From Yuukianura sp. NJ FZ-2021 (lineage: Eukaryota): a stretch of DNA of 64,000 bases. Where the stretch lies: positions 682,001-746,000 of the forward strand of contig CM102289.1 of NCBI GenBank assembly GCA_046563655.1, given 5' to 3'. Position 1 is the first letter of the stretch; each line of letters begins with the position of its first letter. Under the pieces are notes generated by a model. The model had not been told where the DNA came from. It did not search any database and worked only from the letters and a program-made list of their open reading frames with translations. The position numbers and the translations under genes are program-made. Positions 1-61,942 of this stretch are shown here, in pieces.

Positions 1-997
1 GGGCATGGTCAAAGCAAATCTTCAGTTGGCGTTTACGTTCAGCCGAGAAATCAGCTGTGCTCTCCAAGTGCGTGTTGAGTAAAAAGAGTTTGACTTGACC
101 GATGAATGCCTAAGAGAAAGTCAATGTTTGATATCTGCGTCAGTTTACTTCGATAGTTGAATAAAGAAAAAGTTGACCTCTGACCTTGGTGACAAGTAGA
201 TTTCGATCCATGGATGTATTAGGATATGGGATGATGTAGTCCTCCTCATGGAACACTTTGTTGTGACGAAGGAAGGTTGCAGTGAAGTACTGGGCCATTG
301 GATTGTTGGTTCCGATCACAGGAAAATACTTGTGCATAAGTTTACGAGCGATGAAATCAAACGTAGCAGGGATGAGTTCTTGAAAAAAGATGATATCATG
401 ATTCTCTCTGTGAAAAAAACATTGAACAATTAGATCCAAAAATGATGCTTCAGTTAATCGATTACTTACTTTTCAATGAGCGCTATAACTGCATCTGTTC
501 TCTTTTCCAAGTTCACTTCGTCTAATCCATCCAGATTCCAGCTGATCACCGAGAACTTCTCTGGAGCCCATTTAGAAAAAGATTTGTTCCCATCATCATG
601 ACCAGCTTTGTCCTCGTCCATGTCATCCAGAGTAACTTCCAAATGTGGCTTCTTTTGGTTCTGTTGTTGTGGTGATGGGGACAGTATGACGACATCGTCG
701 TCGTCGCTCTTTTGCCCAACTTCATCTCCATTTCCGTCCAAAAAGACATCAATAGCAGTCTGCAACAGATTAAAATCTAACTAATTCCAATTCCAAACAA
801 CCCCAACTGTTAGCAATTGTTGTCACCTGAATGTTCCATTTATGTCGTTCCAACATCGTTTTGGCCTCTGCCTCATCCACACTACAAATACTGCTGAGGT
901 CCCGTACTAACTGTGACTTCAAACCATCGTTCAAATCAATGATGACGTTTCGCACTTCGACTCCAGCGGTATCCTCTGTTCCGTGTCCAGTATCCAT
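1..997 (-). CDS. TDP2: Tyrosyl-DNA phosphodiesterase 2, 5' part (runs off the window start). Exons 997-827, 759-470, 407-185, 109-<1
   Basis: GT-AG introns join in frame: N-terminal UBA-like segment (ICSVDEAEAKTMLERHKWNIQTAIDVF) and EEP-domain motifs SWNLDGLD, DIIFFQE, YFTATFL, TSMDRNLL, LNTHLES. Confidence 0.92.
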
Positions 998-1717
998 TGA
1001 TTAGTAATCGGTTTATCCAAAAACAAGGTTTGCCAAGGTCGATTTTGCGACAGCCTACAGCCGGAAGTATAAAATAAATCAGTATTTATCATTTTAATCC
1101 AACAATTACACTAATTTAAAGGATTCCATACGATAAAGCCATTCTTACCTAACTCTTATCCAGCGATCGTCGTCTTCTACTCGAATTGTTAGCTAATTAA
1201 TCAGTAATCACGATTTAAAATTTGCAAATTCCGGAAAAGTTCGATTTACTAACCTGCAATTTCCTATCTAAAAATGTAAACAAACAAGGTTTGGTTGAAG
1301 TAAGGATTATATACAATTCTTGTTATTTCCGGTGTAGCTAATTCCACCATTTTTCGTTTGTACACTGTGCGGTAAATTATGTGGCCACTTTAAATTAGGC
1401 TAAGTTAAGGTGGCAACTTAAGTTGCCCCTCAAGTGTAGCCACGCAATGTAGCCACTAAAAACAAATGAGTTGCTACTAGATGGCTACAACAACGTTCCT
1501 CAATCCTTATTTGCACCAAAAATTGCCCCGCGGTTTTGCGGAGGTCGCCTAATCCTCTGAATTCGTCGGAAATTACGAGAATGTTCTACTTTGGTTAGAG
1601 TGCGGATTAAATAACCGTTGTGACCACACGGTGTACATTTTAAACTAAAATTTGTTAAACTTTGTATGTAATTTTTTAACATAAATTTGTAAACTGATTT
1701 TGAGAACATTGTCAATG

Positions 1718-4700
1718 TTATGAGGTTACGTCACTGTAGGAAGGAAAAGCAAAAAGCCACAGGATGAAAGCCACTAACGTAAAAACTATAAAGACTATGC
1801 GGTCCAGAATGAGGGCAACAAAAGCGCAGTCGTGGGGTCGAACGCTGGCGTCTGCGTTACTCGGATGCCCATCATCCACCAGTTCAATTCCATCTGCAGG
1901 AGTTGTCTTGTGATTTATTCCAAGCAACGCTCCGAGTTTTGATAGACGCTCCAAAATTATTTTACTCAACTGCAAACCCAATTTGAATTTTAAATTTTGC
2001 CGCAAAACGTTTGAAAATTTAAAAAATTTCAAACGAATACCCAGTATGGTAACGTTCCAGTTTGTCGGTAGAGCCAAAACAGAAACACGTTCACACCAAG
2101 CGTAAATTCACTCAACCCCCGCATTCCCTCGAAATACCGAACTGCAAACAAAAGTAATTAATTAATTACGTAATTACAAAAGTAATTACTTAATTTCAAA
2201 AGTAATTCAACGTATAAAATTGATTTAGTTCATCAGTCTTACTCATTGGTCCGCCTCGGTCTGTAGAATTTTGAAAAACTAAGGGATGATTGGTCATGAT
2301 GAAATACAGAACGGAGTAAATATATGCAAGGTGAAGTATAGCTGCAAGTAATTCAGAGTAGTTCAGAGTAATTCAATTTCCATTAATTCGTAATTACTCG
2401 ATGAATTACTTTACCAAAAGTAATTTTGTGTCCAGAAGTGACAGGAATGAGGAAGGAGAGTACAAGAGTGAAGCACATAAAAGAGTTGTCATGTTTTGCT
2501 TTGGCCAAAATGGTTTGTCCTTTTCGTCTTAAATGGATGACGTACGTGATGTCCATGTATGGATCAGGACAACATGCGTAGAAGATGGAGTTGCGACGTC
2601 CAGTCATTGCTAAAAACCATTTTCAAAAAAAAAAATAAAAAAAAAATATAGAATTTCAAAAAAAAAAAGTATAATTTTATTGGAATTATCTTATGGGGAC
2701 GTACATAGCAATTCCCAGTCGATGTTTGGAACGAAAGATGACACGTCTCCTGCTTCGGAGTCTTGCAGTTGTAAGTCTATCTAGATTATGAAAATTATGA
2801 AATTTTAGTGTCAAAAAAAAAGTGAAATTAAAAAATAAAAAGAGAATTTGAATTCATAGCCATACGCGACCACCATGGGACGTCCAGCTTCCAAATTTGA
2901 GTTCGCTACAAATCAAAATGAAAATGTTTTTTCAAAAACGATTTTTTCCGAGCGGCCTTTGACTTTTCGACTTTGACTTTTTGCCGTTTTGAGTTTTTGG
3001 ATTTTGCTTTTTTGACTCTGACATTTTGACTTTGGCTCTTTTACGCTGACTTTTTGACCTTGACATTACCTTTTGCCATGACTTTGGTTCTTTTGATTTT
3101 TTGACCTTGACCTTGACTTTGCCCTTTTGACTTTAACTTTGACTCTTACCACTTGTGCTCATCAAAAGGGAAATTTGCATAGGAAGTACGACATGTCGTA
3201 TAGTGGATTCCTGGAGGGATGAATGTGATGCTTCCGTTGTGCTTGACAACCGCATACGTGTGATACGTGTCATCAAACTGCTCCGAAGCAGAATTGTACA
3301 CGTAAATGTCCGGTTTCCAGATTCGGTGCGGTGGAATCATAAGTTCCGTTATGTTGTCATAGTCACTGGGATCCCAAACTAGACCAGTATCTGTCCATTC
3401 CTACCATTAGATGTTTCAAAATTAGGTTATTAGTAGAGCTGCAAAACATATACTTTTAAATATAAAATATTTAATATTTAAAAAAAATATTTGGGCAAAA
3501 AAGAAAATTAAAAATATTTAAGGAAATTTTAAATATCTACCTACATTTTTCGGCGATTTTCGAAAATATCATATAACTAGGCAATCCGTGGCGCCGCCTA
3601 CCGGCGGCGCTCGAACTAATAGGATAGAAATAGCAACTCAGTCAGTCTCAATGTGTGTGCTGTGCACCCTTCATAAGGAATCTGAGGAGTCCGAAATCTG
3701 ACCTTTAGCCAGACCCTGAGGAAGAGGACACACGAACACGCAGACGGGCTGAGGGGGATTTTCCCTTATGCTTATGATTAGCATGATATTTTGCCAATTT
3801 TTGAAGACAGCTTGAAAATTATGTGGCTTTATTATGATATATTGGCAAAAAATTTCACTCCGAAAAACAGGGAAAGTTTTTTTTGTGCGAATCTTATATT
3901 TTATAGGTTTTCTCATCAGAGAGGTATGACTTTACACTCTGTCTTCCGATGTAATTGCGTAAATAGAGACTGGTAAATTCTTCGTTTACGAAGAGTTTTG
4001 GACGAAGATTTTCCTCTCCGTCTGATGATCTCCGTTTGTTTTTAAATGCAGTGGTAATTTTCACGTAAAAAACGGAAACGGAGAAGCCTCGACTTTTCAG
4101 AAATATACAACTTGTACGAAATTGCGTCGATCTAGACCAGTTGTCGTTAAAACTCTTGACGGACGACAAGTCTCTTCGATGGTCGCCGCCGCCATTTTGA
4201 ATGTCGCCGCCGTTGTAAGAATAGATTTACAGTAGGTTGTAACAGTTTATTCATGGAACCAGTCTCGCAACTACTATTGCCAACGAACTCCCGCATAGGT
4301 CAACGGTCGCCGCCGCCATTTTGAATGTCGCTGTTTTTTTAACACTTGATTTACAACAGGTTATTGCTGGAACCGGCGTATAAAGTGGTATTGATGACGA
4401 ATGCCTACATCAGTTGACAGTCGCCGCCGCAATTTTGATCCAAGATGGCGACGACGGTAGCCAGCGCCATCTTGGATTTTATTTCACACATTACGCTTAC
4501 CAGTCCATCTATTTTCTCGTCACTTTAAGAAATCTATGCAAATGCTCGCATATGACCCTCGGCGTAAAATTTCAAGATGGCGCTGGCGACATTCAGTGGT
4601 CGTAATTTGTCGTCGCAACCAGTTTTGTAAGCTTTTACTATATTTATGTAGGGTATTTGAAGCATATCCCGGAAGAGGTGTTCAACAGTGTTTTTGGGCG

Positions 4701-6953
4701 ACATCCAAGATGGCGACGGCGACCGTCGGGTGACATTAATTTGTCGCTTTTAAGCAAGTCATCGTTTGGTCCACTCCTAGAAAAAATTCTTATAAAACTA
4801 CCGTAAAAGCGCTAGAAATCCGTTTCCATAAAATTTCAAGATGGCGGCGGCGACCATCGGTTGTCGTAATTTGTCAACAAACCTAAGTGTTACGGTTTTT
4901 ATAAATAAAATAATAATAAATAGAATTAAAATAAAATAAAATTAGAATAAAATTCAAATTAAATTAAAGTAATAATTTTCAAAATGGCGGCGGCGACATT
5001 AGTGTCACCATGGGTCATATTTCGTCATAAGCCGACGCCTACATGTCGTATTTTCGGCAGGGGATGCGAGCGACGCTCATGTAAAAAGTGAACGAAGATC
5101 GGACGGAGAGTAGGGCTTTTCTTCGTCAGAATCTCCGTAACGGAGACGGAGACGGAGAGTGAAAGTTTGATACGGAACAAAAAGGTTCCGCTTTTGGACC
5201 ATCTCCGTTCAAAAACTCTCCGTAAACGGAGAATTTACCAGTCCCTAATAGCTAAATTCTTGGAAATTTCGGACCTTATTTAACGCAAATTAAACGTTTT
5301 TGCGATAAATAATGCCCGTTTTAGTAAATATTTAGATACATATTTTCGGGTTTTGATAGTAAATATTAAATAAATATTTCACCGGTTTTTAGCACATATT
5401 TTTAGCAGCTCTAGTTATTAGGCTATTCATGTTAAGCTAACTTTAAGAACTAACATTCAAAATTAGTTTGGACTAGTTTCAGGCTACAATTCAATTTTTT
5501 AAGGTGTTCACATTTTTTAAGACGACTCACCAGGGTCTCCCAAATGTTTGATCTCAAAACTCCTTGTTGCTCGTACTACAAAATTTTAAAAATTAAATTT
5601 AGCCTTAGTCAAAAGTTAACATAACGTTAACTTAGTCTAGTTTATTGAGTTAGAGTTATACAAAATCCACAATTTGCATCAGAGTCACTCCGAATTTGAT
5701 TGTGACTGCATCAGTTTCCCTGGGAACGGGACGTGACAGCACTTGATATTCTCCTAAGAGATTGCGCAGCAGCACATCCGATGCGTTGGAACTATCAGTT
5801 CCTGAAAATTATTTAAACAAGGTAGGGCAATGCTCAAGGGTTGAGCATGGGTCTTCTGGAGGGAGTTGGCAATTGATGCGACTTAAACCGGTCTGCCTCA
5901 AAACTGTAGAACTGAGAAACCGTTTTCATGTAGCTGATGCACCAAAACGTCGCTCAAAATTTTCAGTGCAGATGTGGGGCCTTTTTGTGCACAATTGCAC
6001 CAAAATGTGAAAAAACCGTTTGCATAAGAATGTAGTTCAGCTTTTTAGTCCTGAACAGTTTTCACTCTCCTGAAAATTATTTTGATTCCCAACATTTTGC
6101 ATCAAATTGTTCTCAAATTATGCACAAAATTAGAATGACCTTAAATCTGTTCATGTAAATGCACAATTATTCGGATGTAAACACCATTCTAAATGTACGT
6201 GGAGTTGTTCTCCAGTATGCACAAATTTTGAAATAACAACGTCAATCAGCCAGCGTCAAAATAACTGCGCAATTCGGCATTTGTGCATCTACTGATAACT
6301 GTGTGCAAAATTGAGCTTTGAGGGGCAGGGGTCGAATACAGCTTGTTAAAATCGAAATTATCAAAATTTCTAGTAACTACAAATTTGACCTTTGTTATGC
6401 ACAATTCATGTATTAAGGATTTAAGCCCGATTTTCTACCCTCTGATCAGTCTTAATTTAACAAGGTAACTAAACATACTGTCAGAAAATGACCGGGTCGA
6501 AACTTCGTTGTTTAAGTATATTTTGAGTGTAATCGAAACCAAAATGTTTCCGGGAAACGACTGCACTTAGGGTGCATAAAGTGGCCGCCCATTTCCACGT
6601 TGTTAATATAACACTTTGAGTGCAATATAGACTTAATGAAAACACTTGAGGCATACATAACCCCCCGGACAAAATGGAGCTTATGTTTTAGTGCAAAAAA
6701 TTCTAAAAAATGTGACAGACAGACAGACAAAGTCGTATCAATAGTCTTCTTCAGCACGTCGTAGACGTGCGTCTCCAGAAGACTAAAACTATCTCCTTAA
6801 CTTAATTAATTCATGTTTATTTTATATAAAATATTCTACAAAAAGATCTGTAAACTATACAAAAGAATATTAGAGTTAAGCGTGTTTTTATGTTTTCAAA
6901 CCAGAAAATCGTAGAAAAAGAAGCAGTAGCAGTAGTGCTAAATTCTTGTCCAT
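1718..6953 (-). CDS. Divergent nicotinic acetylcholine receptor alpha-type subunit (Cys-loop channel), ~416 aa. Exons 6953-6902, 5801-5662, 5575-5531, 3400-3150, 2905-2866, 2780-2705, 2609-2415, 2341-2243, 2141-2041, 1969-1718
   Basis: All splice phases are compatible (1251 nt total). Signal peptide MDKNLALLLLLLFLRFSG; RPV, IWKPDIYVYN, Cys-loop CRTSYANFPFDEHKC, FGSWT, loop C FYACCPDPY, M4 ALILDRIVFIVF. Confidence 0.9.
2955..3143. repeat. Degenerate (TTTTGAC/TTGACC)n tandem repeat in nAChR intron 4
   Basis: About 25 imperfect 6-8-nt units visible directly. Confidence 0.8.
3577..3777 (-). mobile_element. Non-autonomous Helitron (201 bp)
   Basis: On the minus strand: 5' TC, 3' CTAG, GC hairpin GCGCCGCC-ggta-GGCGGCGC just upstream of the 3' end, inserted between A and T with no TSD. 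Absent from the related MITE copy at ~49670. Confidence 0.85.
3965..5246. mobile_element. Non-autonomous TIR element with 3-bp AAT TSD (PIF/Harbinger-like)
   Basis: TIR AG(A/G)GACTGGTAAATTCT(T/C)CGTTTACG; AAT at 3962-3964 and 5247-5249; empty site visible at ~49860; internal oppositely oriented AAGATGGCGGCGGCGAC-type repeats. Confidence 0.8.
6480..6790 (+). mobile_element. Helitron/Helentron (DINE-1/HINE-like) non-autonomous fragment; left border approximate
   Basis: (GACA)n microsatellite, then inverted repeat TAGTCTTCT...AGAAGACTA enclosing the hairpin GCACGTC-gta-GACGTGC. Confidence 0.5.
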
Positions 6954-55188: not shown

Positions 55189-58036
55189 CTAGTTCGCTCT
55201 AGGTTGTCTTAATTCAATCCAATTGGATCTGTGTATTATTCTACGACTACATTTAGTTGAAATCCATGTTGCAACTTCTGTTAGTAGAAGTTTCAATTCT
55301 GTGCGAAATTTGTTTCCGAGAATTGCGTAGAGGATGAAATTGAGAGCAGAATTAATGAGTATGGGGAGAGAGACAATTGTGGCTGCAACTTCAGGCTCCA
55401 CTCCCTTCAGAATAAAGTTGAGTTCCAGTGCAGCAGCCAAGGAGTTAAGCAGGATGAACACAAACACAACTGAAAGCAACATTCTGGTTAGGGAACTGTC
55501 ATGAGCAGTAGTGTGTGTGGTTGCAGTAAGGCGCCGCTCTCTCGCTGCTTTGGTTACCTTTAATATAACATCAAAAAACACATTTTACTCCTTTAGTTTT
55601 GTGTTTTTTTTATAACCGTTGTTTTAAATTTACCGCCTTAATGATGAGTATGTTGAGTGTGACGATGGTAACAAAGGGAATGAAGTAGATGCATGTATAC
55701 CAGAGCAGTTGCTGGTACATGATTTGGTAGAATGGAAATCTGTGCAACTGACGAGGAAAACTTCTGCTCCACTCGGTAGACGATGCTTCGTAGCTCCATT
55801 TTACAAATTCCAGCCAACGCGGTAAATTTAAAAATGTTGCAAATCCGAATACTAGCAGTGTGTAACGTCGTGTCTTGCGTAATGTAAAAATTGATGATAC
55901 GAGTAGTGGCTGCGAAATCGCTACAAAGCGCTCCACCGTAACCAAAATCGTCATGAGTACCGATGCTGTATACACTGTTGAAAAAGTGTTAAATAAATAA
56001 TATAATATCGTTTATACATATGAACATACATATTTTAAATGTATTATGAATATTTCGTCCTAAGCTTAAATACTTACTTGTTTTGTTAGTTGGATACGCG
56101 ACATATCCATTCATATTTGAGCGCCGGAATTTTTCATGAAACAAATTGCCGAATTCCTCCGAAGTAACGAACGTAGTAATCAAGTACATGGAATCACAAC
56201 ATGTGAGTCCCAACAGAAGTATGCTTGTTGAGCTGCGCATTGCTCTGCGCATGAGCACAACGAACGTCAAGCTGTTACAAATGAGTCCAATACCACAAAT
56301 GCAGTAAACAAATACCATGTACGTGTAGTAAATTTGTAATAACAACGTTGAAGTTATTTCTTCTTCCGAGAATCCATGTAATTTCAAATGACGTGCAATC
56401 CTGTACTCTTTCTTGAGCCAACGATCATACTGGACTTCGTTCAACCGGTAACCATCTGTCTCGTTGAAAGTAAACCATAGTGACTCGTCCTGGTCATATG
56501 TAAAAGTGTTGGCGGAAAATGTGGTGTTGAAAATTGATTCTATGACTCTTTTAAATTGAGTTGTGACCTTTGCTCTGACGCGGTTGACAGGTATTTTGAT
56601 GATGATTGCCTGAGGTCGTTGCTTTACAAATTCCAAAAGCAACCGTTGAGACAATACATCCTCCATATTCATCGCTACTTGCTCTACATGTGGAAAAATA
56701 CTGCCAATATTGTCCAAAATTGTGTCCTCAATTGAGCACCCCTTGAACGACAAATATTTCAAACTTGACAAAGGCTGCTCTGGTAGCATTTTGACTCTAA
56801 CGTCAACAAATTGCAAATGTAAGGTTTCTAGTGATCTCAATTCGGGTGACCCCAGGTCAACTACTGGACACTCTTCTTCCAAATACTGACAGTCGATGGA
56901 CAGAGATTCCAATTCATGGATTTTCAAAATAGCATCTAATGTAGTGTTCCACAAATACGAATTGAATAGTTGAAGTTGTCGAAATTGTTTGGATAAATTG
57001 AAAACACCGAGGTCAAGGTCACCAAAGGTCACACTTATCTCCTGTAGTTGGGTGAACTGTTGTATTAACTGAGGAGGAGCCGAGTTGTAGCGGAAACTCA
57101 ACGATTCTGTTTTAATGTTGACTAGTGATTTGGCGGGAAGCATTGCGACGTCAATTGCTTCAGGAGCTTTGCTATAAATCTCTAGATTTTGAAGGACCAT
57201 AGCAGATTCCATAAGTTGTGATATGGAGCCGCCCATGATGTCACTGTACCGCAAGTCCAAAGTTTTGGTAAACGTCAAATTTATTAACTTCACATCAATT
57301 GTACAAAACACTGCGGTGAACGTTTTGAACATTGGGATCATGCTGTAAAGCAGTCTCCAAATGGTATCATCTCTAATCTTGGTTACTGTCAACCATGAAT
57401 TGCTCAATACGAAGTGTCCGTCTAGGCCAACAAAGCAAGAAATGTAAAAATTCAAATCCTGGAGGACAGTGGCTATTCCGGCTCCTCTGCTTTCATTTGT
57501 GTAAAAGAACATGAATGACTCTACTGCTTCGCGGACGTTCCAATCATATCTTGAACCATAAATTTGCTTGAATTCGAAATTTTTCAAATTTGGAAGGTAA
57601 ATGTTTTCGACATTCGTTTCACTTTTCCACTCCCACTCTACTAAGGCCAACTTCAAAGTTATCAAATTGGTACAATTGGTTAAAAAATTTGCAAGTGTGG
57701 ATCTTTTCACTCGCACCCATTTCAATTTCACTTCCGTTATTGCACACTGCCCATCCACTGCTAACATTTTCTCAACTTCGTCGAAATCCTCCAGAAAAGT
57801 TCTGTTTCCTTCCAGTAATATTTTATTTTCCTTCAAAAATTAAAAAAATGTGCAATTCTTTCGTTTATAAATAATTAGACACTCTTATATTAATCTACGT
57901 TATATTATGTTATCTATACATTAATGTATATTTTATGACCCGGTGTAGCCAACTTTGAGGTACTTACGGTGACGTATCTTTCGGCCTTCGCCTCTGAAAC
58001 AAGCAAAAATATGAATAAACTGATGCACAAATTCAT
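55189..58036 (-). CDS. Class A GPCR (FMRFamide-receptor-like 7TM) with a long LRR-like extracellular N-terminus, ~843 aa. Exons 58036-57968, 57830-56078, 55974-55634, 55557-55189
   Basis: Phases are compatible (2532 nt). Signal peptide MNLCISLFIFLLVSEAKA; LxxLxL repeats; GIGLICNSLT, LLGLTCCD, VTVERFVAI, LNLPRW, IPFVTIVTLNILI, INSALNFILY, KFR. Confidence 0.88.
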
Positions 58037-61000: not shown

Positions 61001-61942
61001 CTGCTAAAAACTTTTTCTTGTTTCGGTGGCGTTTTGAAGCGAAAATTATCAATCAGTTTTATTTGGTCAGGTTAGCATTTGTTTTTTTCCCAAAACAAAT
61101 GCTGTTGTGGTGGTGTCGCTTTCTCGGAATTATCAGATTAAAAAAAACGTAAAAGTTTTGACGACTTTTGGCATTTTTAGCAAAATATGAACGTACGTAG
61201 TTAATAAAGCCTTGTATTCACAGTTTCACTAAAAAAACGAGAAGAGGCGTGCAAGTTTGAGAGAATTGTTGCGTGACCTCCGTTCGTCGTCTAATTAAAA
61301 TATCGCATGGGGTCAGTCCCACCAGGTCATAACTCATTCCCACTAAAAACAAACAACAAGCTCACAGTTATGCACAAAAAACTAACAACAAGCTAAAGGT
61401 TATGCACAAAAAACTAACTTTTATGTCCAGTCCATAACAATCAGGAATTTCTTTACGAAATCACTACCTACTCACATATATATTTACTTTTCTCAGTCAT
61501 GCATGCTCCAACTAGTGACACTTCCAACCTAATCTAATAGCCTAACCTAATCTTATAGCCTAACCTAATAACATCAACCTAACAAAAAAGCCTAATGCAA
61601 TCAATTGTCGTCACTGATCCTAATCTCAGTACAACTTAAAGCGTCTTTTGCTTTTAACACACAACTCAGTTTGAAAAAGGTGTCAGAACTTGTTTTCTCG
61701 AGTGATTTTTCTCACTGTTTCTCAGAAATTTAACAAAAAGAGGCCCATGACTCTTATACGACAGAATTTAAATGGAGATGCGCAATCGTCGAAATTGAGA
61801 TGCGCATGAGTCACTTCAGGGACTAGACATGCCTGGGACTGAATTTTAATCAAGTCCTTTAAGCCGCTTAAGGACTCTGTTCAGTTTTACATTTATTTTC
61901 ACTTTTGCAGCAAAACTGACGTGATTCTCCTTCAAAGTGAAG

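What the first reader, a model, noticed from the sequence alone, without database searches (positions are those of the whole stretch)
2243..2609. nAChR alpha subunit with an intact agonist site but a rebuilt pore
Seen: loop A Tyr, loop B Trp, loop D Trp and loop C Y-x-CC...Y are all kept. M2 aligns without gaps to alpha7 ([27 protein letters not shown]) as SGHKITFAILHLAYIYSVLYFIMTNHP: -1' Glu>His, 6' Thr>Leu, 9' Leu>Ala, 13' Val>Ser. The first half of M1 is polar (KGQTILAKAKHDNSF), M3 has charged residues and the M3-M4 loop is short. Established: -1' Glu and 13' Val govern cation selectivity in alpha7, and 9' Leu forms the gate. Inference: altered selectivity (possibly anion- or pH-dependent), a leaky or non-conducting modulatory subunit, or relaxed selection on the TM domain. 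An open frame over 10 exons argues against a dead gene.
Basis: partly seen in the sequence, partly recalled or inferred. Interest (0 to 1): 0.7.

Follow-up and report, generated by a model that had tools for sequence, protein, structure and literature searches.

The report
Conserved nicotinic receptor with rebuilt pore
This is an intact ten-exon gene for an acetylcholine-receptor-type subunit that keeps a normal ligand pocket but has a heavily altered membrane pore, and the same odd pore in a second species shows it is maintained by selection and is not decay.

Summary
On the minus strand, 10 GT..AG exons (6953..1718) give a 416-codon open frame. The ligand-binding domain hits Pfam Neur_chan_LBD and keeps the Cys-loop, YxCC and the aromatic-box residues. 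The membrane exons get no Pfam hit, whereas a canonical control piece does.

Against 37 canonical relatives, the gene has His at -1' (Glu in 35), Leu at 6' (Thr/Ser in 35) and Ala at 9' (Leu in 36). It has no acidic residue at -4' or 20'. The first half of M1 is polar and M3 carries charges.

New here: metagenome contig L001 carries a second intact gene with the same exon sizes and phases and the same odd membrane domain. Synonymous sites between the two are saturated. Non-synonymous difference is equally low in both domains (pN 0.29 and 0.31).

This rejects decay, relaxed selection and mis-splicing. The pore was rebuilt before the two species split and has been conserved since. Whether it conducts ions, and which ions, remains inference. 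No RNA data and no named nematode proteomes were available.

The parts
6902..6953 (-). Exon 1: start codon, 17 codons of hydrophobic signal-like peptide plus 1 base (phase 1), donor GT
   Evidence: best-scoring of the ATG-to-phase-1-donor candidates upstream of exon 2; it joins in frame. L001 has an equivalent phase-1 first exon.
5662..5801 (-). Exon 2 (140 nt): N-terminal helix and beta1 of the ligand-binding domain
   Evidence: Pfam PF02931 E 2.3e-4 on this piece alone. Same size (140 nt) in L001.
5531..5575 (-). Exon 3 (45 nt): beta1-beta2 loop and loop D Trp
   Evidence: 45 nt in L001 too.
3150..3400 (-). Exon 4: loop A, loop E region and the first 14 residues of the Cys-loop
   Evidence: PF02931 E 8.2e-26. 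Top solved-structure matches are alpha4, alpha7 and beta2.
2866..2905 (-). Exon 5: second Cys of the Cys-loop and loop B Trp
   Evidence: Fused with exon 4 in L001 (251+40 = 291 nt).
2705..2780 (-). Exon 6: loop F region
2415..2609 (-). Exon 7: loop C with vicinal Cys (2569-2580), pre-M1 Arg pair, polar M1a (2479-2523), hydrophobic M1b, pre-M2 with -1' His (2428-2430)
   Evidence: 39 of 64 columns are invariant with L001 exon 7. No Pfam hit, while a canonical control piece hits PF02932 at 8.5e-6.
2243..2341 (-). Exon 8: M2 from 4' (6' Leu, 7' His, 9' Ala at 2325-2327) and the M2-M3 linker, which is 4 residues longer than canonical
2041..2141 (-). Exon 9: M3 with a conserved one-sided polar stripe (Glu/Gln, Arg/Lys, Glu)
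1718..1969 (-). Exon 10: post-M3 helix, short cytoplasmic loop (about 50 residues), strongly hydrophobic M4, stop codon at 1718-1720
   Evidence: Weak M4 match to canonical P0001 (E 0.036).

Best explanation
The gene encodes a functional, selectively maintained member of a small divergent clade of nicotinic-type alpha subunits, in animals whose gene architecture looks nematode-like.

Shown. The ligand-binding domain is that of an ordinary nicotinic alpha subunit. It has the aromatic box, the vicinal Cys and the Cys-loop. The gating-coupling elements are also kept: the pre-M1 Arg pair, the Cys-loop FPFD motif and the M2-M3 Pro. The membrane domain still descends from the canonical one, but it was rebuilt on the stem branch of the clade and has been conserved since. 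The rebuilt features are:
- an M1 outer half that is polar, with a conserved Lys and Asn;
- an M3 with a conserved charged stripe on one helical face;
- an M2-M3 linker 4 residues longer than canonical;
- loss of all three acidic rings (-4', -1', 20');
- His at -1', Leu at 6' and a small residue at 9'.

Inferred. The protein still assembles as a pentameric, agonist-gated subunit, and binding of a quaternary-ammonium ligand (acetylcholine, choline or betaine type) is coupled to the membrane domain. The pore cannot select cations in the classical way. A ring of His next to the 0' Lys would make permeation anion-leaning or non-selective and sensitive to pH. The hydrophobic constriction would sit at 6' instead of 9'. 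The polar faces of M1 and M3 would pair across or within subunits.
For: Intact gene: 10 exons, 18 GT/AG splice sites, 416 codons.

Second gene: L001 has 9 exons and 418 codons. Exon sizes match: 140/140, 45/45, 291/291, 76/79, 195/195, 99/99, 101/101, 252/246 nt, with identical phases.

Selection: pS is 0.75 overall, which is saturated. pN is 0.287 in the ligand-binding domain and 0.305 in M1-M3. Fisher p is 3e-27 and 2.5e-8 respectively. Amino-acid identity is 115/207 in the ligand-binding domain, 52/103 in M1-M3 and 8/15 in polar M1a.

Conservation inside the clade is normal. At ligand-binding-domain identity 0.55, membrane-domain identity is 0.47. The 173 canonical pairs at comparable ligand-binding-domain identity (0.45-0.60) average 0.51. 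Identity of the window gene's membrane domain to canonical subunits is 0.18 (maximum 0.22). That is below the minimum (0.24) of 317 canonical pairs at comparable ligand-binding-domain identity.

Phylogeny: ligand-binding-domain-only trees join the window gene and L001 at 100/99.

Pore: in M2, 9 of the 10 positions from -1' to 8' are identical between the two genes, including -1' His and 7' His.

Descent: the membrane domain still scores 18.8 and 23.2 bits against a canonical membrane-domain profile. The best of the 397 reported shuffles (400 made) scores 6.4.

Helix faces: the M3 polar residues sit at helical angles 340-40 degrees in both genes.

Background: Glu at -1' is described as the hallmark of cation-selective subunits in passages read from PMC4055736.
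Against: No expression evidence was obtained.

No conduction, selectivity or ligand data exist. The step from sequence to permeation is pure inference.

The Pro-Ala motif that marks known anion-selective nicotinic channels is absent.

M3 of the window gene is barely hydrophobic (mean 0.42, against 1.31 in L001 and 1.64 in relatives). M1 has lost its conserved mid-helix Pro. A canonical four-helix bundle is therefore not assured.

The window lineage shows more unique membrane-domain departures from canonical than L001 does: 9 against 1 with a consensus outgroup (p 0.021), and 10 against 4 with P0050 as outgroup (p 0.18). Some extra relaxation in this species cannot be excluded.

Only two clade members were found. 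Flanking genes show no synteny (166 window ORFs against L001, no hit), so orthology as opposed to old paralogy is not settled.
Confidence: 0.55

Rival explanations
1. It is a non-conducting or modulatory subunit. The protein keeps its ligand pocket and pentameric assembly but no longer forms a working pore. It would act as a membrane-anchored acetylcholine binder or sink, as a silent or dominant-negative partner in heteromers, or as a ligand sensor that signals through conformational change and not ion flow.
For: Polar M1a and weakly hydrophobic M3. Loss of the conserved M1 Pro, the 9' Leu gate and all acidic rings. Very short cytoplasmic loop without the usual long pre-M4 helix. No Pfam membrane-domain hit on the exon pieces, while a control piece hits. 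M4 is the one strongly hydrophobic helix (2.73) and could serve as an anchor.
Against: The lower, selectivity-filter half of M2 is the best-conserved part of the membrane domain (9 of 10 positions from -1' to 8'). That is hard to explain if no ions pass. The gating-coupling elements are retained in both genes: pre-M1 Arg, Cys-loop FPFD, M2-M3 Pro. A mere anchor would not need M1-M3 under the same constraint as the ligand-binding domain.
Confidence: 0.3
2. It is a decaying gene. The membrane exons would be under relaxed selection or the locus would be a young pseudogene, and the open frame would be residual.
For: The membrane domain is unlike canonical ones (identity 0.18). The window lineage shows a slight excess of unique membrane-domain changes. 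No expression evidence was obtained.
Against: The same unusual membrane domain occurs in a second species at saturated synonymous divergence, with pN 0.305 against pS 0.684. There is no stop or frameshift in 416 and 418 codons, and all splice sites are intact in both genes. The ligand-binding and membrane domains are equally constrained.
Confidence: 0.05
3. It is a reading artefact. The true transcript would use other exons or splice sites and encode a canonical M1/M2.
For: None found. The gene model is read from sequence alone, without RNA.
Against: tblastn of a canonical subunit (P0001) against the whole window finds only these exons. The one other match is a 13-residue chance hit at 61125-61163, outside any receptor context. 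L001 has the same exon borders and phases and the same sequence features.
Confidence: 0.02

Closest known systems
Homomer-type neuronal nicotinic alpha subunits (vertebrate alpha7; nematode ACR-16 group as described in PMC8841521)
   Same: Pfam Neur_chan_LBD, Cys-loop, YxCC loop C and aromatic box. Exon 7 aligns without gaps to human alpha7 residues 179-240. Alpha4, alpha7 and beta2 are the top solved-structure matches for exon 4. Four-segment membrane topology with matching segment lengths.
   Different: No Glu at -1'. No acidic residue at -4' or 20'. 6' Leu, 9' Ala, polar M1a, charged M3. M2-M3 linker longer by 4 residues. Cytoplasmic loop of about 50 residues.
Anion-selective nicotinic-type channels of Lymnaea and Schistosoma (SmACC), passages read from PMC4055736
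   Same: They descend from nicotinic receptors, some are alpha-type with YxCC, and they have lost the -1' Glu that marks cation-selective subunits.
   Different: Those carry a Pro-Ala motif at that position. Here the pre-M2 has canonical length, with Ser-Gly-His-Lys. Their M1 and M3 are not reported as polar. The tree here cannot place them, because no named sequences were available.
Unnamed database protein P0050 (437 aa), sister to the clade in ligand-binding-domain-only trees (support 99/91, 40 rows)
   Same: Alpha-type loop C, short cytoplasmic loop, -1' not acidic (Ser), 9' Ala.
   Different: It keeps the canonical M1 Pro, -4' Asp and 20' Glu. It passes Pfam Neur_chan_memb at 82 bits and scores 68.4 bits on the canonical membrane-domain profile, against 18.8 and 23.2 for the clade. 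It looks like an intermediate state.
C. elegans orphan nicotinic-like subunits and DEG-3-group M2 variants
   Same: Nematodes are known for very large and divergent receptor families. PMC8841521 (passage read) gives 29 core subunits plus 32 orphan subunits. Recalled, not seen in any call: Mongan et al. 2002 reported M2 variants such as a 0' His in ACR-22.
   Different: The orphans are described there as non-alpha, whereas this gene is alpha-type. Membership in any named C. elegans group could not be tested, because no named nematode sequences were reachable.

Membership tests
Cys-loop (pentameric) ligand-gated ion channel superfamily | Neur_chan_LBD domain with a C-x13-C Cys-loop | tested here: met
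   PF02931 E 8.2e-26 on exon 4 and 2.3e-4 on exon 2. The Cys-loop with FPFD is read in the spliced frame.
Cys-loop (pentameric) ligand-gated ion channel superfamily | Neur_chan_memb domain (four hydrophobic membrane helices) | tested here: inconclusive
   No PF02932 hit at E<=1 on the window's exons 7 to 10, each tested on its own. L001's exon-7, -8 and -9 equivalents also get none, and its last exon only E 0.2. A canonical 65-residue control piece hits at 8.5e-6. The spliced domain could not be sent to Pfam. A home-made canonical profile still scores 18.8 and 23.2 bits, against at most 6.4 among the 397 reported shuffles of 400 made. M3 hydropathy peaks at only 0.61.
Nicotinic receptor alpha subunit | Vicinal Cys pair in loop C (YxCC) | tested here: met
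   Present in the window gene and in L001.
Nicotinic receptor alpha subunit | Aromatic box: loop A Tyr, loop B Trp, loop C two Tyr, loop D Trp | tested here: met
   Columns read in alignments with relatives. The Tyr two residues after the loop B Trp is replaced (Ser here, Ala in L001).
Cation-selective nicotinic receptor | Glu at -1' (intermediate ring), with acidic -4' and 20' rings | tested here: not met
   -1' is His in both genes, against Glu in 35 of 37 canonical rows. -4' is Thr/Ser, against Asp/Glu in 32. 20' is Thr/Asn, against Glu/Asp in 25.
Cation-selective nicotinic receptor | 9' Leu hydrophobic gate and 6' Ser/Thr ring | tested here: not met
   9' is Ala/Cys, against Leu in 36 of 37. 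6' is Leu/Leu, against Thr/Ser in 35 of 37.
Anion-selective nicotinic-type channels (Lymnaea, SmACC) | Pro-Ala motif replacing the -1' Glu | tested here: not met
   The pre-M2 reads Ser-Gly-His-Lys with no inserted Pro. The motif is as defined in PMC4055736.
Named nematode groups (ACR-16, DEG-3, UNC-38, UNC-29, ACR-8, orphan lgc) | Clustering with named members in a phylogeny | not testable with these tools
No annotated nematode proteome is held.

The most novel reading that the evidence does not exclude
A previously undescribed, conserved clade of nicotinic alpha-type receptors reached a non-cationic pore by a route different from the known Pro-Ala route. Its marks are a His ring at -1', no acidic rings, a gate shifted to 6', and a new charged M1-M3 interface in the outer leaflet. 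Such a pore might be anion-permeable or proton-gated or proton-modulated. P0050 would represent an intermediate step. This would be a third, independent way for acetylcholine-type receptors to change the sign or nature of their signal.
Probability: 0.25. Interest if true: 0.75.

Novelty: new variant of a known kind. Interest (0 to 1): 0.6.

Why it matters
Charge selectivity in this receptor superfamily is usually explained by a few pore rings. Natural receptors that break those rules and are nevertheless kept by selection are the best test cases.

Here a normal acetylcholine-type pocket is joined to a pore with none of the three acidic rings, a His ring, a displaced hydrophobic constriction, and charged residues inside two membrane helices. 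All of this is conserved between two species at saturated synonymous divergence.

If the protein conducts, it shows a new solution for selectivity and gating. If it does not, it is a natural example of a receptor-derived ligand sensor without a channel.

Nematode receptors of this superfamily are also the main anthelmintic targets, so a lineage-restricted, constrained subunit is of practical interest.

The caveat is that it may already exist as an unnamed or uncharacterised gene model in nematode databases that I could not search.

Tried and rejected
- **Whole genome:** none is held.
- **RNA evidence:** no RNA holder was listed for 1700-3420.
- **Earlier notes of this scan:** none by place, by sequence or by words.
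- **Word-index protein searches:**
  - Exon 4, setting 'longer', gave only the canonical P0001.
  - P0007 residues 1-96, 'longer', gave only the canonical P0152.
  - The exon-7 alignment A1, 'near', gave nothing.
- **Metagenome scan with the window's exon 7:** 487 pattern matches, none confirmed.
- **Other loci fetched with P0007:** L002 to L004 are distant receptor-like genes (25-35% identity) with a canonical Glu-Arg pre-M2. L005 matches over one 36-residue exon only. None belongs to the clade.
- **Synteny:** 166 flanking window ORFs against L001 gave no hit at E<=1e-3.
- **Second receptor gene in the window:** the 13-residue M1-like match at 61125-61163 lies in an unrelated short frame.
- **Frameshift origin of polar M1a:** the other two frames of exon 7 do not encode a canonical M1 either.
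- **Literature:**
  - Five short motifs of the odd membrane domain occur in no held paper.
  - Three keyword searches for comparable nematode subunits found none: searches returned nothing relevant, and one search returned only the background paper PMC4055736 (passages read).
  - This does not show that the clade is unpublished, because most subscription papers and all sequence databases lie outside these searches.
- **Structure prediction:** the spliced protein is not a letter-for-letter translation of one stretch, so no fold or pentamer model was made.
Full report
**What is at the coordinates.** The interval 2243-2609 holds two exons of a minus-strand gene. I read all three frames from 6400 to 1650 and fixed the exon borders at GT..AG sites. 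The exons are 5801-5662, 5575-5531, 3400-3150, 2905-2866, 2780-2705, 2609-2415, 2341-2243, 2141-2041 and 1969-1718. Exon 2 starts in phase 1. A scan for ATG-to-phase-1-donor segments upstream gave one clear signal-peptide-like first exon at 6953-6902. The ten exons join into 416 codons without a stop. Short introns and TTTTCAG-type acceptors look nematode-like. That is an inference, and I did not try to identify the source.

**Family.** Exon 4 hits Pfam Neur_chan_LBD at 8.2e-26 and exon 2 at 2.3e-4. Exons 7 to 10 give nothing at E<=1. As a control, the equivalent 65-residue piece of a canonical relative (P0001) hits Neur_chan_memb at 8.5e-6. The best solved-structure matches are nicotinic alpha4, alpha7 and beta2 for exon 4 and alpha7 for exon 7. 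Exon 7 aligns without gaps to alpha7 residues 179-240, with no identity in the first half of M1. The Cys-loop, YxCC and the loop A, B, C and D aromatic residues are present.

I compared the gene with 41 relatives drawn from an exhaustive HMMER search. That search returned 3678 proteins at E<=0.001 and listed the best 150.
- M1a has hydropathy -0.84, against a mean of 1.18 and a minimum of -0.31, and 5 charged or His residues against a mean of 1.2.
- On a 19-residue window the hydropathy peaks are 1.51 for M1, 1.63 for M2, 0.61 for M3 and 2.73 for M4.
- Among 37 canonical rows, -4' is Asp/Glu in 32, -1' is Glu in 35, 6' is Thr/Ser in 35, 9' is Leu in 36, 20' is Glu/Asp in 25 and 23' is Pro in 37.
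- The window gene has Thr, His, Leu, Ala, Thr and Pro at those positions.
- A profile of 39 canonical membrane domains aligns the window gene without gaps from M1b to 23' Pro. In L001 the profile places the extra 4 residues after 23', in the M2-M3 linker.

**The key new result.** The HMMER search contained a 135-residue fragment, P0007. It is 57% identical to the window protein over 96 residues and shares derived ligand-binding-domain traits. Using it to scan metagenome contigs fetched L001, a 7922-nt contig with 42.7% G+C, against about 36% for the window.

L001 carries a complete gene on its plus strand. It has 9 GT..AG exons between 2188 and 3994 and 418 codons. Exon sizes in the window and in L001 are 140/140, 45/45, 251+40=291/291, 76/79, 195/195, 99/99, 101/101 and 252/246 nt, and the phases are the same.

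Its membrane domain has the same oddities:
- polar M1a (8 of 15 residues identical);
- the same pre-M2 with -1' His;
- 6' Leu and 7' His;
- a small 9' residue (Cys);
- the longer linker with the same Gly-Gly-Pro;
- the same charged positions in M3.

**Selection.** By the Nei-Gojobori method, synonymous sites are saturated (pS 0.751 overall). pN is 0.287 in the ligand-binding domain and 0.305 in M1-M3. Where it can be computed, omega for M1-M3 is about 0.21. Fisher tests of non-synonymous against synonymous differences give 3e-27 for the ligand-binding domain and 2.5e-8 for M1-M3.

Within the pair, ligand-binding-domain identity is 0.55 and membrane-domain identity is 0.47. This is inside the range of 173 canonical pairs with ligand-binding-domain identity of 0.45-0.60, whose membrane-domain identity has mean 0.51 and minimum 0.28.

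Against canonical rows, the window gene has ligand-binding-domain identity 0.39 and membrane-domain identity 0.18 (maximum 0.22). That is below the minimum of 0.24 among 317 canonical pairs with ligand-binding-domain identity of 0.35-0.45 (38 of the 41 rows were complete enough to use).

The pattern is a burst of change on the stem branch followed by ordinary constraint. That is the signature of a changed function, not of decay.

The membrane domain is still recognisably descended from the canonical one. It scores 18.8 and 23.2 bits on the canonical profile, against at most 6.4 among the 397 reported shuffles of 400 made. P0050 scores 68.4.

**Phylogeny.** Trees built on the ligand-binding domain alone leave out the odd columns. 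They join the window gene and L001 with SH-aLRT 100 (46 rows, quick search) and with 100/99 (40 rows, careful search, after dropping six long-branch rows). P0050 is their sister at 88 and at 99/91.

P0050 has -1' Ser, 6' Ala and 9' Ala. It keeps -4' Asp, 20' Glu and the M1 Pro, and it passes Pfam Neur_chan_memb. This suggests stepwise remodelling.

**Results that cut the other way.**
- Relative-rate counts show equal change in the ligand-binding domain (23 against 23). In the membrane domain the window lineage has more unique departures: 10 against 4 (p 0.18) with P0050 as outgroup, and 9 against 1 (p 0.021) with a consensus outgroup.
- The window's M3 is much less hydrophobic than L001's (0.42 against 1.31).
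- Flanking genes show no synteny with L001.
- Only two clade members were found.
- There is no RNA evidence.

**Mechanism (inferred).** The pre-M1 Arg pair, the Cys-loop FPFD motif and the M2-M3 Pro are all kept, so agonist binding is probably still coupled to the membrane domain.

The best-conserved membrane stretch is the selectivity-filter half of M2 (9 of 10 positions from -1' to 8'). This argues that the pore matters. Passages read in PMC4055736 describe the -1' Glu as the hallmark of cation-selective subunits and describe Pro-Ala as the anion route. Here there is no acidic ring, a His sits next to the 0' Lys, and there is no Pro-Ala motif. Classical cation selection is therefore unlikely. 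An anion-leaning, non-selective or pH-dependent pore is the most economical reading.

In both genes the polar residues of M3 fall on one helical face: positions 4, 7 and 11 of the segment, at angles 40, 340 and 20 degrees. The conserved M1 Lys and Asn fall within 20-80 degrees. That fits a structured polar interface better than random loss of hydrophobicity.

A non-conducting, modulatory or ligand-sink role is the main rival.

**Novelty.** Nematode receptor families are known to be large and divergent. A passage read in PMC8841521 gives 29 core plus 32 orphan subunits in C. elegans. A divergent subunit as such is therefore expected. What is unusual is an alpha-type pocket joined to a conserved, polar-faced M1/M3 and a pore without acidic rings.

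I found no description of this. Motif strings occur in no held paper, and keyword searches found no comparable nematode subunit.

I rate it a new variant of a known kind. Confidence is high that the feature is real and selected, and low to moderate for the proposed permeation mechanism.

Noticed in passing
window 3953-5258 (inside intron 3 of the receptor gene): An element of about 1.3 kb is bounded by 50-nt inverted repeats (3953-4002 and 5209-5258, 82% complementary). It is filled with subrepeats of about 130 nt built around a GC-rich 20-mer that occurs in both orientations. It looks like a non-autonomous DNA transposon.
   Followed up: partly
window 2906-3149 (intron 4): The intron consists largely of degenerate short repeats of a GTCAAAG-like unit.
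   Followed up: no
window 1-1000, minus strand: The neighbouring gene has a UBA-like domain (PF14555, E 1.6e-5) followed by a weak Endonuclease/Exonuclease/phosphatase match (PF03372, E 0.012). From memory, this resembles a tyrosyl-DNA phosphodiesterase 2-type protein.
   Followed up: partly
window 55989-57839, minus strand: A single open frame of 616 residues has a weak F-box-associated LRR match (PF24758, E 1.7e-5). Its hydrophobic C-terminal part looks like the start of a multi-pass membrane protein.
   Followed up: no
protein P0050 (database protein, 437 aa): This unnamed alpha-type nicotinic-like protein has -1' Ser, 6' Ala, 9' Ala and a short cytoplasmic loop. It is sister to the clade in ligand-binding-domain-only trees. 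It may be an intermediate form and would be worth testing alongside the clade.
   Followed up: partly
loci L002-L004 (metagenome contigs): These are distant Cys-loop receptor-like genes with a 9-residue insertion before loop A and a Cys-Gly-Glu-Arg pre-M2. They appear to be encoded without introns over at least 700 nt, and their source organism is unknown.
   Followed up: no
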